This document shows, piece after piece, positions 1-55,688 of a DNA stretch of 64,000 bases. Source of the stretch: a virus; IMG/VR virus record IMGVR_UViG_3300036861_001052, positions 64,001-128,000 of that record. The stretch is one strand, 5' to 3'. Position 1 is the stretch's first letter. The number at the start of each line of letters is the position of its first letter. The notes under the pieces were generated by a model. That model had not been told where the DNA came from and ran no database searches. It worked only from the letters and a program-made list of their open reading frames with translations. Both the position numbers and the translations under genes were made by a program.

Positions 1-2
1 AC

Positions 3-182
3 AGGAAGGCTTACTACGATCGCGAAGCGGCGACCGATGACGCCGAGCTCATCGTCGCGAAAGATCGCAACGGTCCGACCGGCACGGTGCCGCTCCGCTT
101 CGTCGACGAGTACGTGCGCTTCTACGAGCGCGCCGAAGAGACCTACGACGATCTCACCCAGAACTTCGCCGAGGACCGATGA
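3..182 (+). CDS. dnaB: Replicative DNA helicase, C-terminal fragment (gene begins before window)
   Basis: Frame 3 reads RKAYYDREAATDDAELIVAKDRNGPTGTVPLRFVDEYVRF, the typical DnaB C-terminal motif; not in ORF track. Confidence 0.9.
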   Translation, partial: RKAYYDREAATDDAELIVAKDRNGPTGTVPLRFVDEYVRFYERAEETYDDLTQNFAEDR

Positions 183-391
183 GCGCCGTCACATGTGTGC
201 TCGGATACATTCTGGTCGGCATCGTGATCTCGCTCGGGATGCTCAGCATCGACGTCGTCCAGCACTGGCGTGGCAAGAACGACGGCGAGCACGACATGGA
301 CTTTCTGGTGAACAACATCGTCATCTGGCCGGTCACGGTCGTCGTCGTCCTCCGCGAGACGTGGCGGATGCATCGCGAGAAGAATCGGTGA
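179..391 (+). CDS. Small membrane protein
   Basis: ATGA overlap with dnaB; two hydrophobic segments. Confidence 0.7.
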   Translation: MSAVTCVLGYILVGIVISLGMLSIDVVQHWRGKNDGEHDMDFLVNNIVIWPVTVVVVLRETWRMHREKNR

Positions 392-651
392 CGGGCAGGA
401 AACCGGTAGTCTTTCTCGCCGAGTTCGACGACGGCGAGATGCACGCTTGCCGTGCTGCCGACGACATGGAGATCGTAAACCGACCGATGTGCGGCAAGGT
501 CGCGGCCTACCGGTCCCAGGGCGAGAGCGGGACCTTCGTGTGCGACGCTTGCATCCCGCTTCTCGCCGCGGCGCTCGGCATCGATCCGGACGACTTCGCC
601 CGGAGGCTCGAAGCCGTGAAGTCGGGGCGTGACGATCCGGACGGTTCTTAG
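388..651 (+). CDS. Hypothetical protein (Cys-containing)
   Basis: GTGA overlap; VTGRKPVVFLAEF...CDAC. Confidence 0.6.
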   Translation: MTGRKPVVFLAEFDDGEMHACRAADDMEIVNRPMCGKVAAYRSQGESGTFVCDACIPLLAAALGIDPDDFARRLEAVKSGRDDPDGS

Positions 652-24815: not shown

Positions 24816-27272
24816 GTGAGAGGCAAGCACAAAGCGTACGGTCGAGCGTTTCCAATCCGGGAAGCGGACGTCGGCTCGTACAAGGTAGCGCGTCACCGTC
24901 CCTATCGAGCGAATCCGATGGGCGTGACGACGCTGTCGAGCGTCAACGGCCCGGGCGCGTATTCCGCGCGTGCGGCCTCGAGTGGGCTTTCCCGCGCCGA
25001 GCGTCTGCGGCGCGCGCGCCGGCTCATGGAGAACCGAAGCATGCAAGGACACAAGGTGCACAGGGCCAAGTTCGTACGGCGCATGAAGGCAAACAGCGGT
25101 CGGATGACCTCGAACGCTGCCCGACGCCGCGCGGGCAAACGCCTCGCTGCGTTTCAGGCAGCTCGGCGTCGTGGGCTTTCGAAGGAAGCGGCGATGCGGA
25201 GCGCGTCCCGGAAGTTTCCGAAGAGTCGCCGGCGTGGCTACCGCCGAAACGAGGGACCGGCTCAGGTCGCTTCCCCCGCCTACCGGTCGGGCCACGAGCG
25301 GATCTACGGGAAAAAGGCTCAGCGAAGGCGCGCCGCCGCGGCAAAGCGGAAAGCGCATCGCGCCGAGGTCGCCGCGCGTAAGCGCGCTCGTAAGGCTGCC
25401 GCTCGCGCGAAGAAGCGCGCAGCGATGACGCCGGAAAAGCGCGCTTCGCTCCGAAAGCGCCGCCGCAGGGCGAGCTTTCCTAAGCAGTACAAGAAGGTGC
25501 GGGGCCGAAGGGGCAAGATGCACCGAGTGCGAGTGGCGTACGGACCGTACCGCCGCGCGCGCCTTTCCGATCCGAGGTCAGGCCGAAAGCGCCTCTCCTA
25601 CACCTATCGAGGCAAACGCGGCAAACGCCGCAAGATTCCGCAGTGGGCCGTTGCCGGAGCAGTCAGTGCGCGCGACTACAAGACGTCGAGCGTGTACGGG
25701 CGCGCCCGGGAGCGGATCGCACGGCGTCGTAAACGTGCTGCCGCTCGCGTAGAGCGCAGCGGAGATGCGTTCGTTCCGAACGCGGGAGCAAGAAAAGTGG
25801 CAAGACGAAGAAAGCGAAAAGGGCACAAGCGTTCCCGCCGGGGACGTCGCAAGGTGAAACGGACGCGCGGTCGCGCGCGGCGCCGATCGGCGGGTCACAC
25901 CGTCCGCAGGCGCAAGAGGCGCAAGTCAGCGAGCCGCCGGACAGCCCGGAAGCACCGTGCGAGCCCGCATCGCCGGAAGAAGCGTCGTGCGCACGCGAAG
26001 AGGCGTTCCACGCGCCGCCGGTCCAAGCGCCGGTCGCACCCGCGTCGGATCGGTCGCCGCAAGGTGAGGCGCCTGAGAAAAGGCATCTACCTGGTCGCGA
26101 ACCGCCGTCGCCGTCGCTCGCGCCGCCGCTACGAGGAAAACCGCAGGGTCCGCCGGCATCGTCGTCGGAAGCTCGCGGCAAATCCGCGTCGCAGGCGTCG
26201 CTCGCGGCGTCACGTCGCAAACCGCAGGCGCCGAACGCATCGGCGTCGGAGCTACCGTCGTAACCGGAGCTACCGCCGTAACGGCTTCATGGGCGACTTG
26301 AAGACGCTCGCGAAGATGGGCTTCCTGGTCCTCGGCGGCTTCTTCCTCCACAAGGGGATCACGGGCGGAATCATTCGGGCGCTGACGTCTACGGACGCCT
26401 CGACCGGAGCGATGACGTTCGCCTCGCTGCCGATGATCGGAGCCGACGGCAAACCGACGGTTCTCGCGACTTGGCAGAAGCCGCTCGTCGGAGGCCTGTT
26501 CGGCGGTCTCGGCATCTTCGGGATCTCCAAGCTCCCGATGAAGTCGGACACCCGGAATGCGCTGTCAGCGGGCGTGGTGACGTCGTTCCTTCAGAGCCTC
26601 GTCCACACGATCCTGACTGTCGCAAACCAGCCGGAGGTCCTCTCCTATCTCGAGGGTTACCAGAACAGCGCAGCGTACTCGCTCCGCGGTACCCGAGGGA
26701 AACGGCGCCGTCACCCGATGCGAGGCCTCGGCGTCGCACGGAACGCGACGTCGATCATGCCGCACTACGCACCTGTCGGACAGTTCCAGCAGGCCGCAGC
26801 CGGCATGGGCGAGTACTTCGCGGCTCAGAGCGGCATGGGTGAGTACTTCGCGGGTCCCGGCGTCGAAGGCGTCGGTCACTACGAGAAGGCTGGCCCCTTG
26901 GCGCTTCAGCCCTCGACGAGCCGGATGGGTAACCTTCCGATCGACGACGGCATTCGCCCCGACTCGAACCTCGACCACGTGATGGATCTCGCGGAAAGCG
27001 CGGCCGGTCTCGGCCAAGGTTTCCGTCAGGCCGCCGCGGGAGTCGGGGCGGGCCCGGGTTACCGGCAGGCAGCTGCCGGTATGGGCGAGTACTTCTCGGC
27101 TGCCCCGCAAGACGGCGGCTACAAGGAGTTCTCGGTCCCGACGCAGTCGCAGTGGATCCCCTCGGGGCCCCTCTGGGCCGGCACGATGAGTGCCGACGCT
27201 GCGTACACGGAGAGCGAGCTCCCGGCTGGGATCCTCCAGGGTCCTGGCGGAAACGGAGTGCTCTCGGGCTGA
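24816..27272 (+). CDS. Protamine-like Arg/Lys-rich membrane polyprotein; candidate DNA-condensing core protein
   Basis: About 490 aa of R/K-rich sequence, hydrophobic segments, MRGLG, three GMGEYF repeats. Confidence 0.8.
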   Translation: MRGKHKAYGRAFPIREADVGSYKVARHRPYRANPMGVTTLSSVNGPGAYSARAASSGLSRAERLRRARRLMENRSMQGHKVHRAKFVRRMKANSGRMTSNAARRRAGKRLAAFQAARRRGLSKEAAMRSASRKFPKSRRRGYRRNEGPAQVASPAYRSGHERIYGKKAQRRRAAAAKRKAHRAEVAARKRARKAAARAKKRAAMTPEKRASLRKRRRRASFPKQYKKVRGRRGKMHRVRVAYGPYRRARLSDPRSGRKRLSYTYRGKRGKRRKIPQWAVAGAVSARDYKTSSVYGRARERIARRRKRAAARVERSGDAFVPNAGARKVARRRKRKGHKRSRRGRRKVKRTRGRARRRSAGHTVRRRKRRKSASRRTARKHRASPHRRKKRRAHAKRRSTRRRSKRRSHPRRIGRRKVRRLRKGIYLVANRRRRRSRRRYEENRRVRRHRRRKLAANPRRRRRSRRHVANRRRRTHRRRSYRRNRSYRRNGFMGDLKTLAKMGFLVLGGFFLHKGITGGIIRALTSTDASTGAMTFASLPMIGADGKPTVLATWQKPLVGGLFGGLGIFGISKLPMKSDTRNALSAGVVTSFLQSLVHTILTVANQPEVLSYLEGYQNSAAYSLRGTRGKRRRHPMRGLGVARNATSIMPHYAPVGQFQQAAAGMGEYFAAQSGMGEYFAGPGVEGVGHYEKAGPLALQPSTSRMGNLPIDDGIRPDSNLDHVMDLAESAAGLGQGFRQAAAGVGAGPGYRQAAAGMGEYFSAAPQDGGYKEFSVPTQSQWIPSGPLWAGTMSADAAYTESELPAGILQGPGGNGVLSG

Positions 27273-27447
27273 GCTGTAGCGCTTAACACCGCCGGCCCCG
27301 GTAGGACGAGCGCGCCTCACCGCTCTCGAGCCCCGGGGCAGCGGTGTCAGAACCGACCGGCGGAAAAGCCCCGAAAGGGGCCGGGACGACACCCGACCAA
27401 AACGGATCTTCCGGTCACCCACCCGTTTCCAAAGGAAACATACCAAC

Positions 27448-27483
27448 ATGGCAAAACTGACGAACGTCAGAGAGCGTGTGCAT
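27448..27483 (+). CDS. Putative major capsid protein, exon 1
   Basis: AAAGGAAA RBS; MAKLTNVRERVH, ends in T at the predicted 5' splice site. Confidence 0.8.
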
Positions 27484-28260
27484 CACGCGGACGTTCGGTG
27501 AAAGCGAAAGCTGGTGCCCCTCGGCGGTAACGCCGGGGTGATAACTGGGTGAATCAAACCGTTTCGTGATGAGAATGAGAACTTCAGACACAGACATCGC
27601 CTGGCTTGCTGGAATCGTGGACGGCGAGGGCTGCTTCTCCGTGAAGCGTCCCATCGTTCGCAAGACCTACAAGAAGGGGCGAGTGACGAGCTACCAAGTG
27701 TGGCTGGTCGTCTGTAATACGTCCGAGCCGATGGTACGTCGGGTCACGGAGATCTTCGGATCTCTCGGGATCGGGCACCAGCCGGTGAGGCGCGTCTGGA
27801 AGGGAAAGAAGGCAACTCGGTGGCAGTACTGGGTGCACGTCGCGCGAAAGCACGAGCTCTTGCGTCTGACGGAACTCCTCCTGCCTTTCCTCGTGGCCAA
27901 AAAAGACGAGGCCGAGATCGTGCGCTGGTTCCTATCGAGGGCTTGCAGCACGAGGCAATACGTTCCCACTCTTCTCGATCGTACCGCGCTCGAAGCGATG
28001 GCCACGATCAAGCGACACGGCGGGGAAGCCCCTGCTGAGGTGCGAGAGCTCCTTCGCGAGGTAATCCCGAGCCAAGCCGTTTCTGGGATCCGTGCGGCCC
28101 ACGGATTGGAGACGGAAGGCGTAGAGACTAGGTCGGTGACTCCCAAGAATAACCCGACCCACGAGTGCCCGGCGCCCCTCCACTTGGTGGGGTGATGAGA
28201 TAGCCCGACACTCCGGGAAACCGGAGAGCCCGCATAAACAGCGGGCATGACAGAAGCAAG
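27484..28260 (+). ncRNA. Group I self-splicing intron (777 nt)
   Basis: U before 5' site and terminal G; IGS GCTGGTGC (27510-27517) pairs with GCAT (exon 1) and CAGC (exon 2); core-like AATCCCGAGCCAAGC, GTAGAGACTA, GAGATAGCCCGA; GNRA hairpins for P2 and P9. Confidence 0.9.
27566..28195 (+). CDS. Intron-encoded LAGLIDADG homing endonuclease (single motif)
   Basis: IAWLAGIVDGEGCFS...VCNTS...LLPFLVAKK. Confidence 0.92.
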   Translation: MMRMRTSDTDIAWLAGIVDGEGCFSVKRPIVRKTYKKGRVTSYQVWLVVCNTSEPMVRRVTEIFGSLGIGHQPVRRVWKGKKATRWQYWVHVARKHELLRLTELLLPFLVAKKDEAEIVRWFLSRACSTRQYVPTLLDRTALEAMATIKRHGGEAPAEVRELLREVIPSQAVSGIRAAHGLETEGVETRSVTPKNNPTHECPAPLHLVG

Positions 28261-29028
28261 CAGCCGTTTTACGACACGCTCATCCGAACCTCCGGTCTCG
28301 GCGGTTCCATCCCCAAGGTGAATCAGCGGACCTCGCTGTTCACGAACCAGGCTCGCCAGGACGACATCAACGCCCTGACGAACCTGCCGAACGGTTCGAC
28401 GCTCCCGTCCGACCAGAGCCACGTGACGCTCGCGCTTCGCGTGTTCATCTGGTTCCGCAATCCGCAGATCCGCGCAAGCGGCTTTGCGAACGGTGCGATC
28501 AAGAACAACGGCGACTTCTCCCAAGCGGGAGCGGCGGCGTTCTTCTCGCAAGGCGGAGTCGACCCGAACGGCGCGACCGCGGGCCCCGGCGCCTTCAACT
28601 ACCCGGGCTCGATCGAGGACGTCTACCGCCTGTACTGGCAGTCGGAAGAGCAGCTTCACTGGAGCTACGGCACCGGTGACAAGTTCTCGATCACGAACAT
28701 GCCGACGAAGTACTTCCCGGACGGCGGTGGCCTCTGGGGTGACCTCGGTGGCTCTTCGGATCTCATCCACTTCAACAACGGCACGCCGGACCACACGGCA
28801 ATTCTCCGGCTCGCGCGCGCGATCCTTCTGCCTCCCCGGCAGAACATCAAGTGCGCCGCCGAGATCGTGCCCTTGCCCGACGGTGGAAACGCCCAGATCG
28901 CTGGATCGACCGTGACCGGCAACGGCCGGAACATGCTGTCGCTCCAGGACAACCTGAACGCGACCGACGGGATCAACAAGGTGATTCAGTTCACCTTCGA
29001 CGGTCTCTTCGCCCGCGACGTTCAGTAG
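28261..29028 (+). CDS. Putative major capsid protein, exon 2 (candidate single jelly-roll; 267 aa spliced)
   Basis: In-frame join gives RERVH/QPFYDTLIR; beta-rich; structured leader and 3' hairpin. Capsid role is inference. Confidence 0.65.
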   Translation, partial: QPFYDTLIRTSGLGGSIPKVNQRTSLFTNQARQDDINALTNLPNGSTLPSDQSHVTLALRVFIWFRNPQIRASGFANGAIKNNGDFSQAGAAAFFSQGGVDPNGATAGPGAFNYPGSIEDVYRLYWQSEEQLHWSYGTGDKFSITNMPTKYFPDGGGLWGDLGGSSDLIHFNNGTPDHTAILRLARAILLPPRQNIKCAAEIVPLPDGGNAQIAGSTVTGNGRNMLSLQDNLNATDGINKVIQFTFDGLFARDVQ

Positions 29029-29075
29029 CTTCGAACGCAGGTTGATCGCGCGCCTGAGCCAAGCGCGGTACGGCA

Positions 29076-29110
29076 CGGACGGCGGTTTCCCTCAAAAGAG
29101 CCGCCGTCCG
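29076..29110 (+). terminator. GC hairpin after putative capsid gene (stabiliser or attenuator)
   Basis: CGGACGGCGG / CCGCCGTCCG perfect 10-bp stem; no U tract. Confidence 0.5.
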
Positions 29111-29139: not shown

Positions 29140-30132
29140 ATGGCAAGTTGGGAACAGGTCATTCGAGACCTGCAGAACACGGCAGGCTTTGCCGCCGCAA
29201 AGGCGAAGGAAGCGATCGACAAGGCAGGCCGAAACGAGAGCGCCCTCGCGCTCGTCCGGCAAGAGCTCGAACGCGAGCAGCGCTCCATGCAAGCGCTCGC
29301 CGACGCGCTCGAAAAGGTCCAGGGCCGCGGCGCGGGCTACGGTAACGGTAACGTCGGCGTCGACGAGCGCGTGCGCTACATCGAGTCGATCCCGGGTCGC
29401 AGGATCCCGTTCGACTTCGTCGTGACGATTCCTATTTCTTCGAACTCGGTCTCGCAGGTCCAGGGCACGAAGACCGTGAGCCAGGACGGGCCGTTCGTGG
29501 CGGTTGCGCGCTACGCGGCGTTTCAGTCCGCGTTCCAGTTTCAACGGGTAGACCCCGTCACGCAGGAGAAGGCGGTCTTTCAAGGACGCTCCTTCGGCCG
29601 TTTTCGTCCGATGCACTCCATGTGGGACCTGAACGATGCCTCGACCGGCGTCTTTCAGCCGACGACCGGCATCGCTCAGCCGGGCACGGGCGCGCCGATC
29701 GTGGCGGCTCCCTCGAACATGTCGTCCTTCCGCACGATGGAAGGCGACTTCATCATCCAGATGCTGAATCAAGGCGCTGGCTACCCTCGCGACAATCAGG
29801 ACGGCGGCATTCCGAGCGCCTGGTACTCCGAGAGCATCAACAGCCCCTTCCAGCTCGGAGCCTTGGACTTCTTCGAGCGCGGCGAGACGATCCAGTGGAA
29901 GGTCACGCCGACGCACGTCAATAACCCGCCGGCAGGTAACCTTTCGGGTTACGCTGCGGGTGGCGTGTTCCCGTTCCTCGCGAGCCAGTACGACGTGCAC
30001 GAGGGCATCAACGACCAGCTCGATCCCGAGGCAACGAGCGATCCCATCACGAGGCTCCCCGACGGGATCTTGTGGATAGGGATGCACGGGATCAAGATCG
30101 TGCAGCCCCCCGGGCCGGTGAGGCTCACCTAA
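29140..30132 (+). CDS. N-terminal coiled coil plus beta-sandwich; candidate second capsid protein
   Basis: GGAGG RBS; PFDFVVTIPI, QDGPFVAV, DFIIQM, ETIQWKVT, LWIGMHGIKI strands. Confidence 0.6.
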   Translation: MASWEQVIRDLQNTAGFAAAKAKEAIDKAGRNESALALVRQELEREQRSMQALADALEKVQGRGAGYGNGNVGVDERVRYIESIPGRRIPFDFVVTIPISSNSVSQVQGTKTVSQDGPFVAVARYAAFQSAFQFQRVDPVTQEKAVFQGRSFGRFRPMHSMWDLNDASTGVFQPTTGIAQPGTGAPIVAAPSNMSSFRTMEGDFIIQMLNQGAGYPRDNQDGGIPSAWYSESINSPFQLGALDFFERGETIQWKVTPTHVNNPPAGNLSGYAAGGVFPFLASQYDVHEGINDQLDPEATSDPITRLPDGILWIGMHGIKIVQPPGPVRLT

Positions 30133-38170: not shown

Positions 38171-40927
<2,757 letters not shown>

Positions 40928-40978: not shown

Positions 40979-42457
<1,479 letters not shown>

Positions 42458-51369: not shown

Positions 51370-51852
51370 ATGGCAGACGTACAAAAGGTCGTTGCGGCTC
51401 GCATTCAGGCGACGTCGCTTTCCGCCGTCCAGCAACCGAGCCTCCAGCCCCAGGGCCCGCGCTTCGGTAACATCATCGCCGAGGAGTCTAGCGAGCTCCC
51501 CCCGAACGAGATCCGGACCGTCCTCTGGGACAATGGCCTGGTGGACGACGTGGACGCCGACAGCGTCGCGGCGCTCAATCTCGATGTCATCGAAAATCCA
51601 GCGGCCGACGTCATTTCGACCTTCGAGGGACAGGTCGTCCTTCGTATTGCGCCAGAGGGCGCCGTGCCGGGCGACGCGGCAGGCGGCACGAGCCGGGAGT
51701 TTTCCGGGCTCGTCCTCGCCATCTACAAGCGAACTCCGATCGAAGCGGAGGCGGGAAGCGGCGACGACTTCCTCCTCGTGCTCAATTCGTCGGGCACTTA
51801 CTTCGAGGACCTCGCCGGATCTTTCACGGTGCTCCGAAACCAGACGCCCTAA
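51370..51852 (+). CDS. Beta-rich hypothetical protein, paralogue of 50911
   Basis: Same motif order. Confidence 0.75.
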   Translation: MADVQKVVAARIQATSLSAVQQPSLQPQGPRFGNIIAEESSELPPNEIRTVLWDNGLVDDVDADSVAALNLDVIENPAADVISTFEGQVVLRIAPEGAVPGDAAGGTSREFSGLVLAIYKRTPIEAEAGSGDDFLLVLNSSGTYFEDLAGSFTVLRNQTP

Positions 51853-54800
51853 AACGGCGCTGTCATCGCCGTCATCATGCGGAGCGGGCTCGGCATGACC
51901 TCGCTCGCGCTCCGGATGGGGCGGAGCCCTGCCTCGAAGGCGTTCCGGGTGAGGAGGCGCCTCGGTGGGGCGTTCGGCAGGAGCTCTTCGTCCTCGTCCT
52001 CGCCGCCGACGGAGAAGTAGGTCTGGGGCGCTTTGGGCGCCTCGAGCACGGCTCTTCGTGGGCCCCCCTCCCGCGAGACGACCACGGTCGGCCGGCGCCG
52101 CATGACCTGAATATTGCCGCTCTCGACGGCAGATCGAGCGATGGCCTCGGTGACGTCCGGGCTCGGGAGGGCAATTTCTGCCCGGACGGAATCCTGGACG
52201 AGCCCTGCCTCGAGCACTTCGGCCGCTCCTGCCTCGTCGAGGCCCTCCTCGACGGCGATCCGGCGGAGGTCGTCCTCGCGGAGATCTTCGCTACTCCGGA
52301 GGATCCTGCGGGAGGCCTGCCGGAAGCCCGCCAGGTAGCGGAGGCGCGCCTTTTGTCCCGAGAGGCCGAGCTCGGCGGCGAGCCGCTTCTCGACTACCTC
52401 GGGGCAGGGAACGATCCAGGCGATGTAGGAGAGCATGACCGAGTAGAGAAGGCTGTACTCACTCGAGCGCTCGCCGCCGCGCAGGACGGGGATCCCATGG
52501 CGCCGGACGTGCTCCCACATGCCGCGCGCCGCCCTCCGCATCACGCACTCCGAGTCCCGCCCGTCGTAGCGGCGCCCGAACTCCTCTCGGAACGCCGCCG
52601 TGTGCACGATGGTCCGCTTCTTCGTGTCGATCCGGAAGGAGTCCTTGTCGAAGAGCGTGCTCCGGAGAATGTTGGCGTCGACGAGCTCGACACTAGCCGA
52701 TGGAAACGCCGCACGCAGGAGCGCCTCGATGCGGGCGTCGAGGGGCCTCGGGAGAGACGGCCGCTCCACCTTCGGATCGCCGACGCCGAGTGCGGCGAGC
52801 CTTTCCGTGATGAGCTTGAGGGTCTCGCGCTCCCGCTCGGCCTCGTCTTTTTCTTTGGCGCGCGACGCCTTCCGGAGCGACTCGACGCTCTCGTAGTAGC
52901 CCTTGAGGAGCTCGCGGGCTTCGCTGACTTGGATCTTCATCGCCTCCTCGGCGAAGCCGACTTCGGCGGAGCGCTCTTTCTCGCGCGCCACCGACAGATC
53001 CTGCCCCGTGATGGATCCGATCCATTTCAGAAACCAGGAAAACTCCTCCGGACTCTTGTCGTAGATGTCGCGCACGGGATCATCTGCGAGAAACCAATCC
53101 GGGAGCTCTTCGGCCGGGCTCACGCCGACGAGAGAGGCCTCGGCAAACTTCTCCATGAAGGCCGTCCACTCTTCGTCGTCCCGCTCGCTCCCACGCGGCC
53201 GCTCGATGTGCTCGAACGCCCGCACCGTCGTCGTGTAGCGCTCGGCGTTCTGCTCGAGCCAGCGGGCGAGGTAGTCGTCGTCGTGGGCGCGGATGTCTTT
53301 ACCGACCCGCGCTTCCGCATCGAACGGCACGAACCGAAACTTCCCCTTCGTGCCGCGGGATAGGCCCCGCTGGATCTCCTGGAACGCTCCCCACCACCGG
53401 TCGAGCCCGAAGGCTTTCGTCGGCGAGGTCTTCATCCACTCGGCGCGAAGAGCCTCGACTTTGGCAAACAGCGTGGGCGCTTTGATCTCCGAATAGAGCT
53501 GCTCGCCCGCGAAGACCGGCAAGGGGGGCACCGTGACCGTCTTCGTCTTCCCCTCCTTGTCCCGTACGGTGACCGTGACTTCTCCGTGCTTGGAGGCAGA
53601 GCCGCGCGCAAACCACGGAAGGAGCGAGAGCTCGCCGAGGCCGTAGCTCAAGGGCCACGGGTCGTAGTGCTCGCCGAGCCAGTGGTCTGCCTGCACCATG
53701 TCCTTGCCACGGCGCTCGTAGAGCGCGACCGTGCCAGGGCTCTTTCCCTGGCGGGGCTCGACGCGGGTGAAGTGGATCTTTTCTCGCGCTTCGTCGCGGT
53801 GCGAGCCCGGTGGGGCGCCGATGTCCGCGTACGCGTAGAAGGGGGAGCCGCGGGAGATGTCCTTCTTCGGCGGCGCGGGCGGCTCCTCGTCCTCGGCGAT
53901 CGCGACGAGGCCTCCCTCTGTCGCGGGCTCGGGCCCCATCTTCGGCGACTCGGCGACGAGAGTCGGATCGGCCTCTTCCCTGGCTTGGACGCCGTAGGTC
54001 TCGATGACTCGCGCGGGGGGAGGCACGGCCGGCGGCGTCCCGGCAGCCGCCCCGCCGGCAATGTACTCGAGGATCTCGTTTTGGCCGGACAGCACATCGA
54101 GCTCGCGTTCGTCTTCGATGTAGCCCTCGGTCACGACCACGCTCGAGTGACCGAGGATGCTCTGGATCTCCCGGATGGGTTTCCCCCGCTTCGACATCGC
54201 CGTCGCGGCGAAGTGCCGGAAGGCGTGGCTGTAGACGAGGCGGCTCTCCTCTGCCGAGAGGCCCGCTTTCTCGGCGATGCGCTTTAGAAGCGCCCGGAGA
54301 CACCACCTCGACATGGGCCGGCTGTGAGCGGGCCGCACGTTGGGTTTCATCTCCTGATACTGCGAGGGGGAGTTCGCTCCCCAGAAAGCGACCGGAGGAA
54401 AGAGCGGCGCGTCGGTCTCTTCGGAGAGCGCCCGGTAGCGCCAGGCTGCGCCCCCGCGCGGGACGTAGAGCTGCCCCTTCGGATCCTCGGACTGAGCGCC
54501 GGGGGGCGCCGCGCGCGCCGCGAGGGCCGACTGAAAGTCGTAGAGCGATCGGAGCGCGTACGGCGGGTAGGGAAGCCTGTGATGGACGCCGCCCTTCCGG
54601 ACGAGCTCGACCATGACGGGAGCTGTGCGCGGCTCGAGCCAGCCGGGCGTCCTCTCGAGCTCGGTCGCCTTCGGCTTCTCGCGAGTGAGCCGGCGGGCCT
54701 CGGTGGCTCGGACTCCCGTGAGGACCAGAAACCAGAAGATGGCGGCGTCGCGCTTTTCGACGAGCGAAGGCCCGCCGGTCGCGGCGAGGAGGCGCTCGAC

Positions 54801-55688
54801 TATCGCCGGGGTGAGCCTGGGGCGCCGTGCGCGCGCGGCGCGCTTGTCGGCAGAGAGGCCGCGGGAGACTCGCGCCGAGATCTCGTCGAAGACGTTCGTG
54901 CGAACGAGGGGCTCTACGTCCACGTCGGCGCGGGCGAGCTCGGTCCATAGGCGGGAGAGAGCCGCGAGCCGGAGCGCAATCGCCGAGCGTCCGAGCGGCC
55001 GCGGCACGGGCAGGCTGTAGATGAAGATGTCTTCGAGCGGGACTTCTTTCGTGCCGCCGCCGTCGCGCGGCACGGTCACGGTAAAGACGTCGATGCCGAT
55101 CTGGGAGTTCTCCTTACGGAGCTCGGAGAGGGTCGGCGACCGGACGAGGAGATCGTGGAGCACCATGCGGCCGAGCTCGCTCGCGAGCCAGGTCCGGAGG
55201 CCGACGCCGCCCTCGTGGGCGCGCGCGAGCCCCGCCGGAAGGCCGGCGAGGATGCTCTCGAGATCGGCCGAGCCGAGAGACTTCACTAGATCGTAGAGCG
55301 CCAGCCGCTCGGGCTGGTCACCGTCCCTGAGGCGCTCTCCCTCGAGCGTGAAGGATTTGGTCGCGAGCCACTCGACGTAGTCCTCGGCGTCCTTCCGGCT
55401 CACCTCCCGCGGCAGGACCACCCGGCGCTTGACCGTTGCGCTCCACTCGAAAAATTCCGCGATGGCGCGGCCGTACTCCTCCCTGGTCCGGGGTGAGTAC
55501 CTGCCCACATAGGAGCTGTAGCGGCCGCCCGGCGCGTCGGGGCCGGCGATGCGGCTCAAGATCTCCGCGTACCTCTCGGTGACCTTGCGGCTCCCCTCGC
55601 CAAAGGCCTCGGTCCACCGCTCGAGAGCCTCCGGGGTGCGCTTGCCCCTCGCGAGCGCAAGCTCCGGACGGTTCCGACCGAGCATCAC
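51849..55688 (-). CDS. Giant tyrosine recombinase/integrase (1279 aa)
   Basis: RDAAIFWFLVLTGVRATE, VRKGG, HAFRHFAAT, IQSILGHSSVVVTEGY: full R-K-H-R-H-Y set; long C-terminal extension. Confidence 0.92.
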   Translation of the reverse strand: MMLGRNRPELALARGKRTPEALERWTEAFGEGSRKVTERYAEILSRIAGPDAPGGRYSSYVGRYSPRTREEYGRAIAEFFEWSATVKRRVVLPREVSRKDAEDYVEWLATKSFTLEGERLRDGDQPERLALYDLVKSLGSADLESILAGLPAGLARAHEGGVGLRTWLASELGRMVLHDLLVRSPTLSELRKENSQIGIDVFTVTVPRDGGGTKEVPLEDIFIYSLPVPRPLGRSAIALRLAALSRLWTELARADVDVEPLVRTNVFDEISARVSRGLSADKRAARARRPRLTPAIVERLLAATGGPSLVEKRDAAIFWFLVLTGVRATEARRLTREKPKATELERTPGWLEPRTAPVMVELVRKGGVHHRLPYPPYALRSLYDFQSALAARAAPPGAQSEDPKGQLYVPRGGAAWRYRALSEETDAPLFPPVAFWGANSPSQYQEMKPNVRPAHSRPMSRWCLRALLKRIAEKAGLSAEESRLVYSHAFRHFAATAMSKRGKPIREIQSILGHSSVVVTEGYIEDERELDVLSGQNEILEYIAGGAAAGTPPAVPPPARVIETYGVQAREEADPTLVAESPKMGPEPATEGGLVAIAEDEEPPAPPKKDISRGSPFYAYADIGAPPGSHRDEAREKIHFTRVEPRQGKSPGTVALYERRGKDMVQADHWLGEHYDPWPLSYGLGELSLLPWFARGSASKHGEVTVTVRDKEGKTKTVTVPPLPVFAGEQLYSEIKAPTLFAKVEALRAEWMKTSPTKAFGLDRWWGAFQEIQRGLSRGTKGKFRFVPFDAEARVGKDIRAHDDDYLARWLEQNAERYTTTVRAFEHIERPRGSERDDEEWTAFMEKFAEASLVGVSPAEELPDWFLADDPVRDIYDKSPEEFSWFLKWIGSITGQDLSVAREKERSAEVGFAEEAMKIQVSEARELLKGYYESVESLRKASRAKEKDEAERERETLKLITERLAALGVGDPKVERPSLPRPLDARIEALLRAAFPSASVELVDANILRSTLFDKDSFRIDTKKRTIVHTAAFREEFGRRYDGRDSECVMRRAARGMWEHVRRHGIPVLRGGERSSEYSLLYSVMLSYIAWIVPCPEVVEKRLAAELGLSGQKARLRYLAGFRQASRRILRSSEDLREDDLRRIAVEEGLDEAGAAEVLEAGLVQDSVRAEIALPSPDVTEAIARSAVESGNIQVMRRRPTVVVSREGGPRRAVLEAPKAPQTYFSVGGEDEDEELLPNAPPRRLLTRNAFEAGLRPIRSASEVMPSPLRMMTAMTAPF

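What the first reader, a model, noticed from the sequence alone, without database searches (positions are those of the whole stretch)
27448..29028. Group I intron hides the true start of the putative major capsid gene
Seen: removing 27484-28260 joins MAKLTNVRERVH to QPFYDTLIR in frame (267 aa). The IGS pairs with both exon ends, with the expected U-G pair and terminal G. ORF callers give a truncated protein from 28318. Established: most phage group I introns sit in DNA-metabolism genes, fewer in structural genes. Inference: capsid production depends on splicing, and RERVHQPFYD is a highly conserved homing target.
Basis: partly seen in the sequence, partly recalled or inferred. Interest (0 to 1): 0.78.

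Follow-up and report, generated by a model that had tools for sequence, protein, structure and literature searches.

The report
Self-splicing intron in viral capsid-like gene
A 777-base group I (self-splicing type) intron that carries its own homing-endonuclease gene hides the first 12 codons of a conserved virion-like gene of an uncultured soil virus; this is a known kind of selfish element, here at an insertion site 7 bases from that of all its known relatives.

Summary
Removing 27484-28260 joins ATG 27448 to 28261 in frame and gives 267 aa. All 22 fetched homologues read M[AS]K[LM]TNVRER[VI]HQPF straight across the junction. All 6 related viral contigs have uninterrupted DNA there.

The insert is a group I intron. 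The 5' exon ends in U and the intron ends in G. Eight contiguous guide-sequence pairs (27510-27517) span both exon ends. A core P2-P9.1 is backed by covariation in 20 related introns: 95% of cells paired against 36-46% for slid controls, and 44 of 75 pairs have compensatory changes.

Rfam scores it only 18-23 bits against a threshold of 50. ORF-less homologues in sister genes score 68-77 bits.

The I-CreI-like LAGLIDADG gene sits in a helix inserted between P3 and P4. About 60 of its codons are also the ribozyme core.

Two points are new here. All 22 related loci carry the intron 7 nt downstream with a co-varying guide, so this copy has switched site. It also has an A.C mismatch in P7.

Splicing itself is not shown, because no RNA data exist. 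The "major capsid" role is unproven; the protein gives only a generic jelly-roll model.

This scan met the same intron family before on other DNA (e1-5356048).

The parts
27448..27483 (+). Exon 1: 12 codons, MAKLTNVRERVH, ending in U27483. An SD-like AAGGA lies upstream.
   Evidence: The same 12 residues start 22 of 22 fetched homologues.
27484..28260 (+). Group I intron, 777 nt, ending in G28260 (omega-G).
   Evidence: It is absent from 6 of 6 related viral contigs at exactly this point.
27510..27517 (+). Internal guide sequence GCUG|GUGC. 27510-27513 pairs with exon 2 (P10). 27514-27517 pairs with GCAU of exon 1 (P1, U27483.G27514).
   Evidence: It is homologous in alignment column to the guide GUAGG|GCGGC of the relatives.
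27519..27538 (+). P2 hairpin, 8 bp, with a GUAA loop.
   Evidence: 8 of 8 pairs have changes on both sides across 20 introns.
27545..27551 (+). P3 5' strand CUGGGUG, pairing with 28166-28172. It is followed by J3/4 AAU (27552-27554).
   Evidence: 2 pairs with compensatory change. Rfam's own alignment of ORF-less relatives calls the same motif P3.
27559..27566 (+). 5' strand of an extra helix ('Px') that pairs with 28013-28020 and closes the ~445-nt loop holding most of the endonuclease gene. Its 3' strand runs straight into P4.
   Evidence: 6 of 6 pairs have changes on both sides. The CC/GG extension was read.
27575..28195 (+). LAGLIDADG homing-endonuclease gene, 206 aa from ATG 27575 (209 aa from GTG 27566). 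The stop UGA 28193-28195 lies at the P8-J8/7 border. Codons from about 28013 on also encode P4-P8 of the ribozyme.
28021..28115 (+). P4-P6 domain. P4 is 28021-25/28065-69, P5 is 28031-33/28059-61, P5a is 28034-40/28051-57, P6 is 28077-85/28107-15, and P6a is 28088-94/28100-06.
   Evidence: P4 is invariant. In the P6/P6a helix 12 of 16 pairs have compensatory change.
28126..28130 (+). P7 5' strand GACUA, preceded by G28124 and the bulged A28125. It pairs with 28201-28205 (UAGCC). A28127.C28204 is a mismatch found only in this copy.
   Evidence: column pair 660/749: AU 15, GU 4, other 1 = window; 19 of 19 relatives have U at that position. The C recurs in a contig of another sample (X4 record 26).
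28131..28159 (+). Hairpin between P7 and P3' (P7.1-like), with the stem GGUCGG/CCGACC.
   Evidence: 6 of 6 pairs have compensatory change and 100% of cells are paired.
28166..28172 (+). P3 3' strand UGCCCGG.
28174..28193 (+). P8 hairpin.
   Evidence: a hairpin at this place in 20 of 20 introns, with different sequences.
28211..28246 (+). P9 (28211-16/28221-26, GAAA loop) and P9.1 (28228-33/28241-46).
   Evidence: In P9, 5 of 6 pairs have compensatory change; in P9.1, 3 of 6.
28261..29028 (+). Exon 2: QPFYDTLIR...ARDVQ, 255 codons plus stop.

Best explanation
27484-28260 is a mobile group I intron inside the 5' end of a conserved 267-aa virion-type (jelly-roll) gene.

Inferred mechanism, standard for the class:
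1. The pre-mRNA folds so that guide 27514-27517 pairs with the last four exon-1 bases (U27483.G27514).
2. A free guanosine bound in P7 attacks after U27483.
3. G28260 then takes the G site, guide 27510-27513 holds exon 2 (P10), and the exons are ligated.
4. The product reads MAKLTNVRERVH|QPFYD... Without splicing, translation from ATG 27448 stops after 17 codons.

The intron carries an I-CreI-type single-motif LAGLIDADG endonuclease gene. The gene lies in the loop of an extra helix between P3 and P4, and its last ~60 codons are read through P4-P8. The enzyme presumably cuts intronless alleles in the conserved RERVHQPFYD-coding stretch and spreads the intron by repair.

This copy sits 7 nt upstream of the site used by all known relatives, and its guide sequence is re-tailored to the new exon ends.

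Shown here: the insertion borders, the RNA structure conservation, the guide complementarity, the endonuclease family, and the presence/absence polymorphism. Inferred: splicing, cleavage, homing, and the virion role of the host gene.
For: (1) Insertion relative to homologues. 22 of 22 fetched proteins are continuous across the junction. 6 of 6 viral contigs read ...GTGCAT|CAGCC... or a synonymous variant. One DNA contig of another soil run joins 27483 to 28261 (X3, depth 3.6, side 26). That joint probably comes from a related virus and is weak.

(2) Group I hallmarks. U before the 5' splice site, G at the 3' end, and 8 contiguous P1+P10 pairs. Such a match arose in 454 of 100,000 shuffles.

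(3) Structure. On 20 distinct homologous introns, 75 proposed pairs are 95.2% paired, against 36-46% when slid. 44 pairs have changes on both sides. 0 of 500 shuffles reach any of the five measures. P8 folds as a hairpin in 20 of 20.

(4) P10 covaries with exon 2 in the relatives: GUAGG-UCUAC, CCAGG/CUAGG-UCUGG, GAAGG-UCUUC, CCAAG-UUUGG. 17 of 19 relatives have 9-10 of 10 guide pairs.

(5) Rfam RF00028 matches the core end to end: 18.4 bits at E 0.047, and 23.0 bits at E 5e-4 when the 5' part is cut off. Homologous ORF-less introns in the same gene family score 77.4, 76.8 and 67.8 bits against a threshold of 50. They share the motifs CUGGGUGAAU, AAUCC..AGCCAAGC, AGAGACUA and GAUGAGAUAGUCC.

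(6) Endonuclease. The LAGIVDGEG motif is present, the ORF is intact, and there are 106 homologues. The profile hits I-CvuI, I-MsoI and I-CreI at E 1e-7 to 1e-3.

(7) The genome is a complete 138-kb record with terminal repeats, and the intron-bearing form has word depth 25.4 and 19.7 in two runs that may be its source. This fits a viable virus.
Against: There is no RNA evidence, so splicing is not observed.

The window's intron does not reach Rfam's gathering score (no hit; best 23 of 50 bits).

P7 carries an A28127.C28204 mismatch next to the presumed G-binding pair. 19 of 19 relatives have a standard pair there. This could slow or impair splicing.

P1 has only 4 exon pairs, and a local alternative fold can sequester both the 5' splice site and the guide.

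This is the only one of 23 loci at this site, so its borders rest on protein and DNA homology plus the guide, not on sister copies.

Pfam's LAGLIDADG models are below their cut-offs (18.7 against 22.5, and 17.3 against 23.1).
Confidence: 0.88

Rival explanations
1. It is a group I intron in decay. After moving to an ectopic site and acquiring the P7 A.C mismatch it splices poorly or not at all, so the host gene is crippled. The virus would be defective or would depend on a helper or on low-level splicing.
For: The A.C mismatch in P7 is unique among 20 introns. The insertion site is unique, 1 of 23 loci. P1 is short. The Rfam score is the lowest of the family: 18.4 bits, against 27-36 for four other endonuclease-bearing introns (three homologues at this site and one at another place in the gene).
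Against: The guide sequence is exactly re-tailored to both new exon ends, with 8 contiguous pairs, which implies selection for splicing at the new site. Every other helix is intact. The endonuclease ORF is intact with all family-invariant residues. The same sequence, including C28204, occurs in contigs of three runs. An A.C opposition can form a wobble-like pair (recalled chemistry, not tested).
Confidence: 0.07
2. It is not an intron. A free-standing endonuclease cassette or other mobile DNA has disrupted the gene, and a shorter protein is made from GTG 28318.
For: The ORF list gives 28318-29028 as an open frame of 236 aa. There is no Rfam hit at the gathering threshold.
Against: The RNA-level covariation, including the P3/P7 pseudoknot and P1/P10, is not expected of a DNA-only element. 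There is no SD-like motif before 28318, whereas a conserved one precedes 27448. The lost 31 residues are among the most conserved and include strand 15-22 of the model.
Confidence: 0.03
3. It is an intein or a group II intron.
For: LAGLIDADG enzymes also occur in inteins and in a few group II introns. The group II case is cited in PMC3706429 as its reference 36, seen there as a passage.
Against: The exon-1 frame hits TGA 5 codons into the insert, and the endonuclease is in another frame, so it is not an intein. No group II family was reported by Rfam at E <= 10 on 27350-28400. The core aligns to RF00028 end to end.
Confidence: 0.01

Closest known systems
Capsid-gene intron of mycobacteriophage LittleE (Cluster J), PMC3706429 (passages read)
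   Same: An intron in a virus capsid-subunit gene of a high-GC system. Exon 1 ends in U and the intron ends in G. It carries a LAGLIDADG (I-CreI-related) endonuclease gene. It was found by comparison with intronless relatives. In LittleE splicing was shown by RT-PCR and N-terminal sequencing.
   Different: In LittleE the endonuclease gene is on the opposite strand, and the intron type was called 'most likely group I'. The host gene there is the major capsid subunit of a siphovirus (its fold class is not stated in the passages I read). Here the ORF is on the same strand, lies between P3 and P4, and overlaps the core. The host gene is an unrelated jelly-roll-type protein. No splicing data exist here.
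Group I introns in major capsid genes of giant viruses: Faustovirus E12 (PMC6247863, passages read) and Mimivirus L425 (PMC2688009, abstract read)
   Same: Capsid genes of large DNA viruses interrupted by introns. In Faustovirus five are group I, and two Faustovirus MCP introns (type not stated) carry homing-endonuclease ORFs. There are several introns per gene, as in relative L091 here, which has 3.
   Different: Those viruses infect eukaryotes and the Faustovirus endonucleases are GIY-YIG. Here the gene shows no sequence or significant structural match to those capsid proteins, the genome has bacterial-style SD motifs, and the host is unknown.
Rfam RF00028 (Intron_gpI) and the ORF-less introns of L091 and L109
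   Same: The same core order and motifs: P3 CUGGGUG, J3/4 AAU, P4-P6 AAUCC..AGCCAAGC, J6/7-P7 AGAGACUA, a long hairpin between P7 and P3', J8/7-P7 GAUGAGAUAGUCC, and P9 with a GAAA loop.
   Different: The window's intron has a helix plus a ~445-nt ORF loop inserted after J3/4, so it scores only 18-23 bits. It also has a 21-nt longer P1 loop and another insertion site.
Yeast mitochondrial COX1 aI5-beta group I intron (PMC2396411, one figure legend read)
   Same: It has a non-canonical insertion between P3 and P4, so an insertion at this place has a precedent.
   Different: From the passage I cannot tell whether that insertion holds an ORF. Here the insertion is a covarying helix that carries a homing-endonuclease gene.
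I-CreI / I-MsoI / I-CvuI homodimeric LAGLIDADG endonucleases (PDB)
   Same: A single LAGLIDADG motif. The profile match covers residues about 6-136 at E 1e-7 to 1e-3.
   Different: There is an extra ~60-residue C-terminal tail encoded by the ribozyme core. Identity is low, and neither the target site nor the activity has been tested.

Membership tests
Group I intron | 5' exon ends in U that forms a U.G wobble with the internal guide sequence (P1) | tested here: met
   U27483.G27514, with GCAU/GUGC giving 4 exon pairs.
Group I intron | Intron ends in G (omega-G), and the 3' exon pairs with the guide (P10) | tested here: met
   G28260. CAGC 28261-64 pairs with GCUG 27510-13. P10 covaries with exon 2 in the relatives.
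Group I intron | Conserved core P3-P9 with the P3/P7 pseudoknot, supported by covariation | tested here: met
   95.2% of cells paired against 36-46% when slid, 44 of 75 pairs compensatory, 0 of 500 shuffles. P8 is a hairpin in 20 of 20. The structure was derived by me from these same sequences, which favours it over the slid controls.
Group I intron | Reaches Rfam RF00028 gathering score (50 bits) | tested here: not met
   18.4 bits, 23.0 bits when truncated, and no gathering hit. Homologous ORF-less introns score 77.4, 76.8 and 67.8 bits. The shortfall fits the ~450-nt insertion between P3 and P4.
Group I intron | Intact guanosine-binding P7 (G-C pair with a bulged base beside it) | tested here: inconclusive
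   G28126-C28205 and the bulged A28125 are present, but the next pair is A28127.C28204, whereas 19 of 19 relatives have A-U or G.U. The assignment of the G site is by analogy and is recalled.
Group I intron | GTP-dependent self-splicing | not testable with these tools
   No RNA run was listed.
LAGLIDADG homing endonuclease (I-CreI type) | LAGLIDADG motif with the catalytic acidic residue, and the family fold | tested here: met
   LAGIVDGEG at residues 14-22. A12-G22 is invariant in 37 homologues. The profile hits I-CvuI at 1e-7, I-MsoI at 2.8e-7 and I-CreI at 1e-3.
LAGLIDADG homing endonuclease (I-CreI type) | Pfam curated cut-off | tested here: not met
   PF14528 scores 18.7 against 22.5. PF00961 scores 17.3 against 23.1. 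In one search, 5 of the 106 listed homologues carry PF14528 and 3 carry PF00961.
LAGLIDADG homing endonuclease (I-CreI type) | Cuts the intronless allele and drives homing | not testable with these tools
   Only presence/absence polymorphism with exact borders was seen.
Viral major capsid protein (jelly-roll) | Jelly-roll fold matching a known capsid protein | tested here: inconclusive
   Model pLDDT 76 and pTM 0.77. Foldseek found nothing at E <= 1e-3 in the PDB or BFVD. The VIA best score is Z 6.1, shared by TNF/C1q-like and assorted capsid jelly rolls.
Viral major capsid protein (jelly-roll) | Main component of the virion shell | not testable with these tools
   Context only. The gene lies among conserved beta-rich and collagen-like genes, and there are no HK97 capsid, TerL or portal hits in the genome.
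Intein | In-frame with the host protein | tested here: not met
   TGA lies 5 codons after the junction.

The most novel reading that the evidence does not exclude
This copy is a natural 'site-switch' of a mobile ribozyme. A ribozyme-plus-endonuclease unit sits after CCGU (inside the Phe codon) in all 22 related loci. Here it has re-inserted 7 nt upstream within the same conserved target, with its guide sequence rewritten on both the P1 and the P10 side. The unit also has an unusual build: the endonuclease gene lies in a helix inserted into J3/4 and shares about 60 codons with the catalytic core. It lives in a jelly-roll virion gene that is an intron hot spot, with up to three group I introns per gene, in an undescribed lineage of 110-300-kb viruses without recognisable tail, portal or terminase genes. 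If so, the family offers paired natural variants for asking how guide sequence, endonuclease specificity and insertion site co-evolve.
Probability: 0.5. Interest if true: 0.6.

Novelty: new member of a known kind. Interest (0 to 1): 0.42.

Why it matters
Practical point: gene callers miss the true start of a very conserved virion-type gene. They give 236 aa from 28318 instead of 267 aa from 27448. The same will happen in the other intron-bearing viruses of this lineage, of which I saw 22 loci.

Biological points:
- The virus's supply of this structural protein depends on ribozyme activity.
- The family gives a clean comparative data set: 20 distinct introns, 44 covarying pairs, and two insertion sites 7 nt apart with matching guide sequences. 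It can be used to study how a mobile group I intron and its endonuclease retarget.
- It also shows how a protein-coding frame can be threaded through a catalytic RNA core.

None of this is a new kind of system. Endonuclease-bearing group I introns in capsid genes are documented in phages and giant viruses (PMC3706429, PMC6247863).

Tried and rejected
RNA evidence: no RNA holder was listed for 27300-29100, so nothing can be said about expression.

I therefore could not fetch the contigs of the two closest endonucleases (P0123 and P0124, 76% identical) to see whether they share the window's insertion site.

A pattern scan of viral contigs for other copies with a G directly before CAGCC.TTYTAYGAYAC gave 2 stretches. 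Both are chance matches outside this gene family.

Cultured phages: there was no protein match to the host gene and no DNA match to the intron. The endonuclease gave only 35%-identical partial hits in 4 Streptomyces phages.

Idea tested and dropped: that the extra 21 nt at the intron's 5' end are a relic of duplicated exon sequence. The local alignment score was 5.0, against a shuffle mean of 5.15, and 69% of shuffles did as well.

Polarity of the site switch: the endonuclease tree is a star. 24 rows form one supported clade and the inner forks are open. That the window's site is derived is therefore parsimony only (18 of the 18 other rows whose site is known use the downstream site), not a rooted result. 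Rows left out of the tree: L012, L096, L101 and L106 (identical or near-identical to rows kept) and L111.

Host-gene function: there was no significant Pfam or PHROG match, no sequence match in the PDB, and no clear fold match. The Atlas gave only weak leads at 0.77 to PRD1 P2/P3 families. The neighbour gene 29140-30132 folds with low confidence (pLDDT 62). Its best beta-domain matches reach Z 6.1-6.7 to PBCV-1 and EhV capsid chains, within the noise range stated by the tool.

Host: 6 MAG contigs from five different phyla or domains carry the gene, so nothing can be said about the host.

Literature: a search for 'group I intron' + 'J3 4' + 'homing endonuclease' + 'inserted' found 0 papers. 'between P3 and P4' found 5 papers, of which one passage was read. 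I therefore do not claim that an ORF at this position is unprecedented. Supplements were not consulted because they are closed.

Recalled from memory and not from any call: the Tetrahymena and Azoarcus comparisons, the role of the pair next to the G site, ORF-core overlaps in other introns, and reverse splicing as a route to new sites.

Full report
WHAT IS THERE

The window is bases 64001-128000 of a 138,414-bp virus record with direct terminal repeats, estimated complete.

At 27448 an ATG, preceded by an SD-like AAGGA, opens 12 codons reading MAKLTNVRERVH that end at 27483. Five codons further the frame hits TGA. From 28261 the same reading continues as QPFYDTLIR... for 255 codons, to a stop at 29026-29028. 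A mechanical ORF list finds this frame only from GTG 28318, giving 236 aa.

THE INSERTION IS REAL

The exon-2 protein has 573 database relatives at E <= 1e-3. The best are 252-271 aa long. All 22 that I fetched start M[AS]K[LM]TNVRER[VI]HQPF[YFW]D, so they are continuous across the proposed junction.

Six related viral contigs (54-91% protein identity) have uninterrupted DNA at this point. L005, for example, reads ...GAGCGTGTGCAT|CAGCCC.... Five of six MAG contigs match residues 1-267 in one piece.

A DNA contig in a different soil run joins 27483 directly to 28261 (X3: depth 3.6, 26 letters on the shorter side, laid at 85% likeness). It is most likely an intronless relative, and I count it as weak support only.

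The borders can slide by two bases (CA on both sides). Only the stated register gives a 5' exon ending in U and an insert ending in G.

IT IS A GROUP I INTRON

Rfam gives no hit at the gathering threshold. It does align RF00028 end to end over 27970-28227, at 18.4 bits and E 0.047. With the 5' part cut off the score is 23.0 bits at E 5e-4. The weak score has a structural reason, described below.

The endonuclease inside the insert has 106 relatives. Using their alignment (A1) I fetched 22 loci that carry a homologous insert in homologues of the same host gene: 3 viral and 19 metagenomic. These are 19 distinct sequences.

I aligned the 19 with the window's insert (A3) and read off a secondary structure. 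I then tested the structure with the count of structure pairs:
- Of 75 pairs, 95.2% of cells form standard pairs, against 36-46% when the 3' partners are slid by 1-3 columns.
- 44 pairs show changes on both sides.
- None of 500 shuffles reaches any of the five measures.

The structure was derived from these same sequences, which by itself favours it over the slid versions. The compensatory changes do not suffer from that bias.

Per helix the support is:
- P2: 8 of 8 pairs compensatory.
- P3: 2 of 7 pairs compensatory.
- An extra helix 'Px': 6 of 6.
- P6/P6a: 12 of 16.
- P7: 1 of 5.
- A P7.1-like hairpin: 6 of 6.
- P9: 5 of 6.
- P9.1: 3 of 6.
- P4 is invariant and is therefore uninformative.
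- P8 is too variable to align, but it folds as a hairpin at the same place in 20 of 20 sequences.

P3 and P7 cross, which is the group I pseudoknot.

P1 AND P10

In the window the guide GCUG|GUGC (27510-27517) pairs with CAGC of exon 2 and with GCAU of exon 1, including the U27483.G27514 wobble. That is 8 contiguous pairs.

In shuffles of the first 45 intron bases, such a match appeared anywhere in 454 of 100,000 trials. Here it lies in the same alignment columns as the relatives' guide.

In the relatives the guide is NNNGG|GCGGC. The P10 half follows exon 2: GUAGG with UCUAC, CCAGG or CUAGG with UCUGG, GAAGG with UCUUC, and CCAAG with UUUGG. 17 of 19 relatives have 9-10 of 10 pairs. Two (L099 and L104) have a weaker P10 at the homologous place, about 7-8 pairs by my own reading's table.

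HOMOLOGY TO INTRONS THAT PASS RFAM

The same gene in L091 holds two further ORF-less inserts, and L109 holds one. They score 77.4, 76.8 and 67.8 bits on RF00028, against a threshold of 50.

Their cmscan alignment labels CUGGGUG as the P3 5' strand, followed by AAUU and then P4 GCGGG. They share with the window's insert the motifs AAUCC..AGCCAAGC, AGAGACUA, a long hairpin between P7 and P3', GCCC.GC (P3'), GAUGAGAUAGUCC, and a GAAA-capped P9.

So the window's ribozyme belongs to a family that includes undisputed group I introns.

THE ENDONUCLEASE AND WHERE IT SITS

The ORF 27575-28195 (206 aa; 209 aa from GTG 27566) has the motif LAGIVDGEG.

Pfam's LAGLIDADG models match below their cut-offs. 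PHROG 5046, labelled HNH endonuclease by PHROGs, matches at 2e-14. A profile of 37 homologues hits the single-motif enzymes I-CvuI (1e-7), I-MsoI (2.8e-7) and I-CreI (1e-3) over residues about 6-136.

In ORF-less relatives P3 is followed directly by AAUU and P4. In the window P3 (27545-27551) and AAU are followed by CAAA and then a covarying helix, 27559-27566 with 28013-28020. Its 3' strand runs straight into P4 at 28021. Most of the ORF lies in the ~445-nt loop of that helix, and the start codon lies 9 nt after the 5' strand.

The ORF then continues through P4, P5, P6, J6/7, P7, P7.1, P3' and P8, and stops at UGA 28193-28195. About 60 codons are therefore both protein and catalytic core.

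This explains two things. First, the tail GGEAPAE...EVIPSQA...EGVETRSVSPNDNPTHECPAP stays conserved even in homologues that are only 35-40% identical overall. Second, the covariance model, which must bridge about 450 nt between P3 and P4, scores low.

An insertion between P3 and P4 has a precedent in yeast aI5-beta (PMC2396411, one figure legend read). I do not know of an ORF there, but my searches are too thin to call it new. Another note of this scan on the same stretch (e1-6165923) and a follow-up on a related intron in another genome (e1-5356048) describe the same arrangement. I reached it independently.

WHAT IS DIFFERENT IN THIS COPY

(a) Insertion site. In all 22 related loci the intron follows ...CAY CAR CCG U and precedes UC UAC/UGG/UUC GA, so it lies inside the Phe codon of HQPF. 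Removing it restores RERVHQPF[YWF]D in every case. In the window it lies 7 nt upstream, between His12 and Gln13. The homologous splice positions of the relatives cannot be used in the window, because they would leave the in-frame TGA in the message. The window's intron has 21 extra bases in the P1 loop and 4 extra bases before the terminal G, and a guide changed on both halves to fit the new exon ends. How it moved is open. Reverse splicing or imprecise repair after endonuclease cleavage are the textbook routes, which I recall and did not test. A relic-of-duplication idea failed. The endonuclease tree is unresolved.

(b) P7 mismatch. P7 has A28127 opposite C28204, where 15 relatives have A-U and 4 have G.U. 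The C is also present in a 151-nt contig of a fourth run from another study, with no differences (X4 record 26, depth 2). It is therefore not an assembly slip. By analogy with studied ribozymes (recalled), this pair adjoins the guanosine-binding pair, so it may cost activity. The re-tailored guide and the otherwise intact helices argue that the intron is still under selection to splice.

THE HOST GENE

'Major capsid' is not established.
- The protein has no significant Pfam or PHROG match and no PDB sequence match.
- An AlphaFold model of the 93%-identical intronless homologue P0002, built with 49 sequences, has pLDDT 76 and pTM 0.77 and is a beta-sandwich.
- Foldseek finds nothing at E <= 1e-3. 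Its weak rows are mostly viral jelly-roll capsid proteins.
- VIA-align's best score is Z 6.1, with 107 residues aligned at rmsd 3.3. It is tied among TNF/C1q-like domains, PRD1 P5, and SPV1 and HCIV-1 capsid proteins. That is within the range the tool calls a common arrangement.
- The genome gives no hit to Terminase_6N, TerL_ATPase, Phage_portal or the HK97-type Phage_capsid family. It gives one sub-threshold FtsK-like P-loop match just upstream of the window.
- Nearby genes include two collagen-repeat proteins.

A structural role in a non-tailed virion is plausible and agrees with an unchecked first-reader note (e1-6165905). It is context, not proof.

COMPARISON WITH WHAT IS KNOWN

Endonuclease-bearing group I introns in virus structural genes are documented. 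The LittleE capsid intron has a LAGLIDADG ORF, and its splicing was shown by RT-PCR. The same paper cites a capsid intron in lactococcal phage Tuc2009 (PMC3706429, passages read). Faustovirus and Mimivirus capsid genes carry group I introns, some with endonuclease genes (PMC6247863, passages; PMC2688009, abstract).

So this is a new member of a known kind. Two features are worth a specialist's notice: the 7-nt site switch with a co-adapted guide, and the ORF threaded from a J3/4 helix through the core.

VERDICT

Confidence that this is a group I intron whose removal at 27483|28261 is needed to make the 267-aa protein is 0.88. Interest is moderate.

Noticed in passing
L091:2506-2747 and L091:2930-3173; L109:2430-2668: The same host gene in relative L091 carries two further ORF-less group I introns (RF00028 77.4 and 76.8 bits) besides the endonuclease-bearing one, making three introns in one ~260-codon gene. 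L109 carries one further intron (67.8 bits). The gene family is an intron hot spot.
   Followed up: partly
L110:737-1056, L112:1814-2129 (also L111): A more distant relative of the endonuclease (42% identity) sits with a group I core (29.6-35.6 bits) at another place in the same gene family, between residues of about 77 and about 136-163 of the host protein.
   Followed up: partly
whole genome G000; window 1-651; G000:C1:63379-63447: There is no hit to Terminase_6N, TerL_ATPase, Phage_portal or the HK97 Phage_capsid family anywhere in the 138-kb genome. One sub-threshold FtsK/SpoIIIE P-loop match (14.8 bits) lies in a 539-aa frame that runs into the start of the window. Together with the jelly-roll models this hints at a large non-tailed virus.
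   Followed up: partly
window 29140-30132: The neighbour gene (330 aa, 583 homologues) is predicted as a 57-residue N-terminal helix plus a beta-sandwich (pLDDT 62). Its best beta-domain matches reach Z 6.1-6.7 to PBCV-1 and EhV-201 capsid chains, which is not decisive. It may be another capsid component.
   Followed up: partly
window 24816-27272: An 818-aa protein lies directly upstream. About 490 residues are extremely Arg/Lys-rich, followed by hydrophobic segments and GMGEYF repeats. There is no Pfam or PHROG match.
   Followed up: no
window 38171-40927 and 40991-42457: Two proteins have collagen triple-helix repeats (Pfam E 9e-37 and 3e-24). They are possibly virion fibres.
   Followed up: no
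window 51849-55688 (- strand): A 1279-aa protein has a tyrosine-recombinase (Phage_integrase) domain at residues 455-526, in an unusually long frame.
   Followed up: no
L170-L175: Homologues of the host gene lie on MAG contigs labelled Pseudomonadota, Pirellulales, Pseudomonadales, Methanomicrobiales and Gemmatimonadota. The labels disagree, so they say nothing about the host and probably reflect binning of viral contigs.
   Followed up: no
L010 (contig of 297,749 bases): One intron-bearing relative lies on a 298-kb viral contig, while the others are 110-140 kb. Genome size in this lineage varies at least twofold.
   Followed up: no
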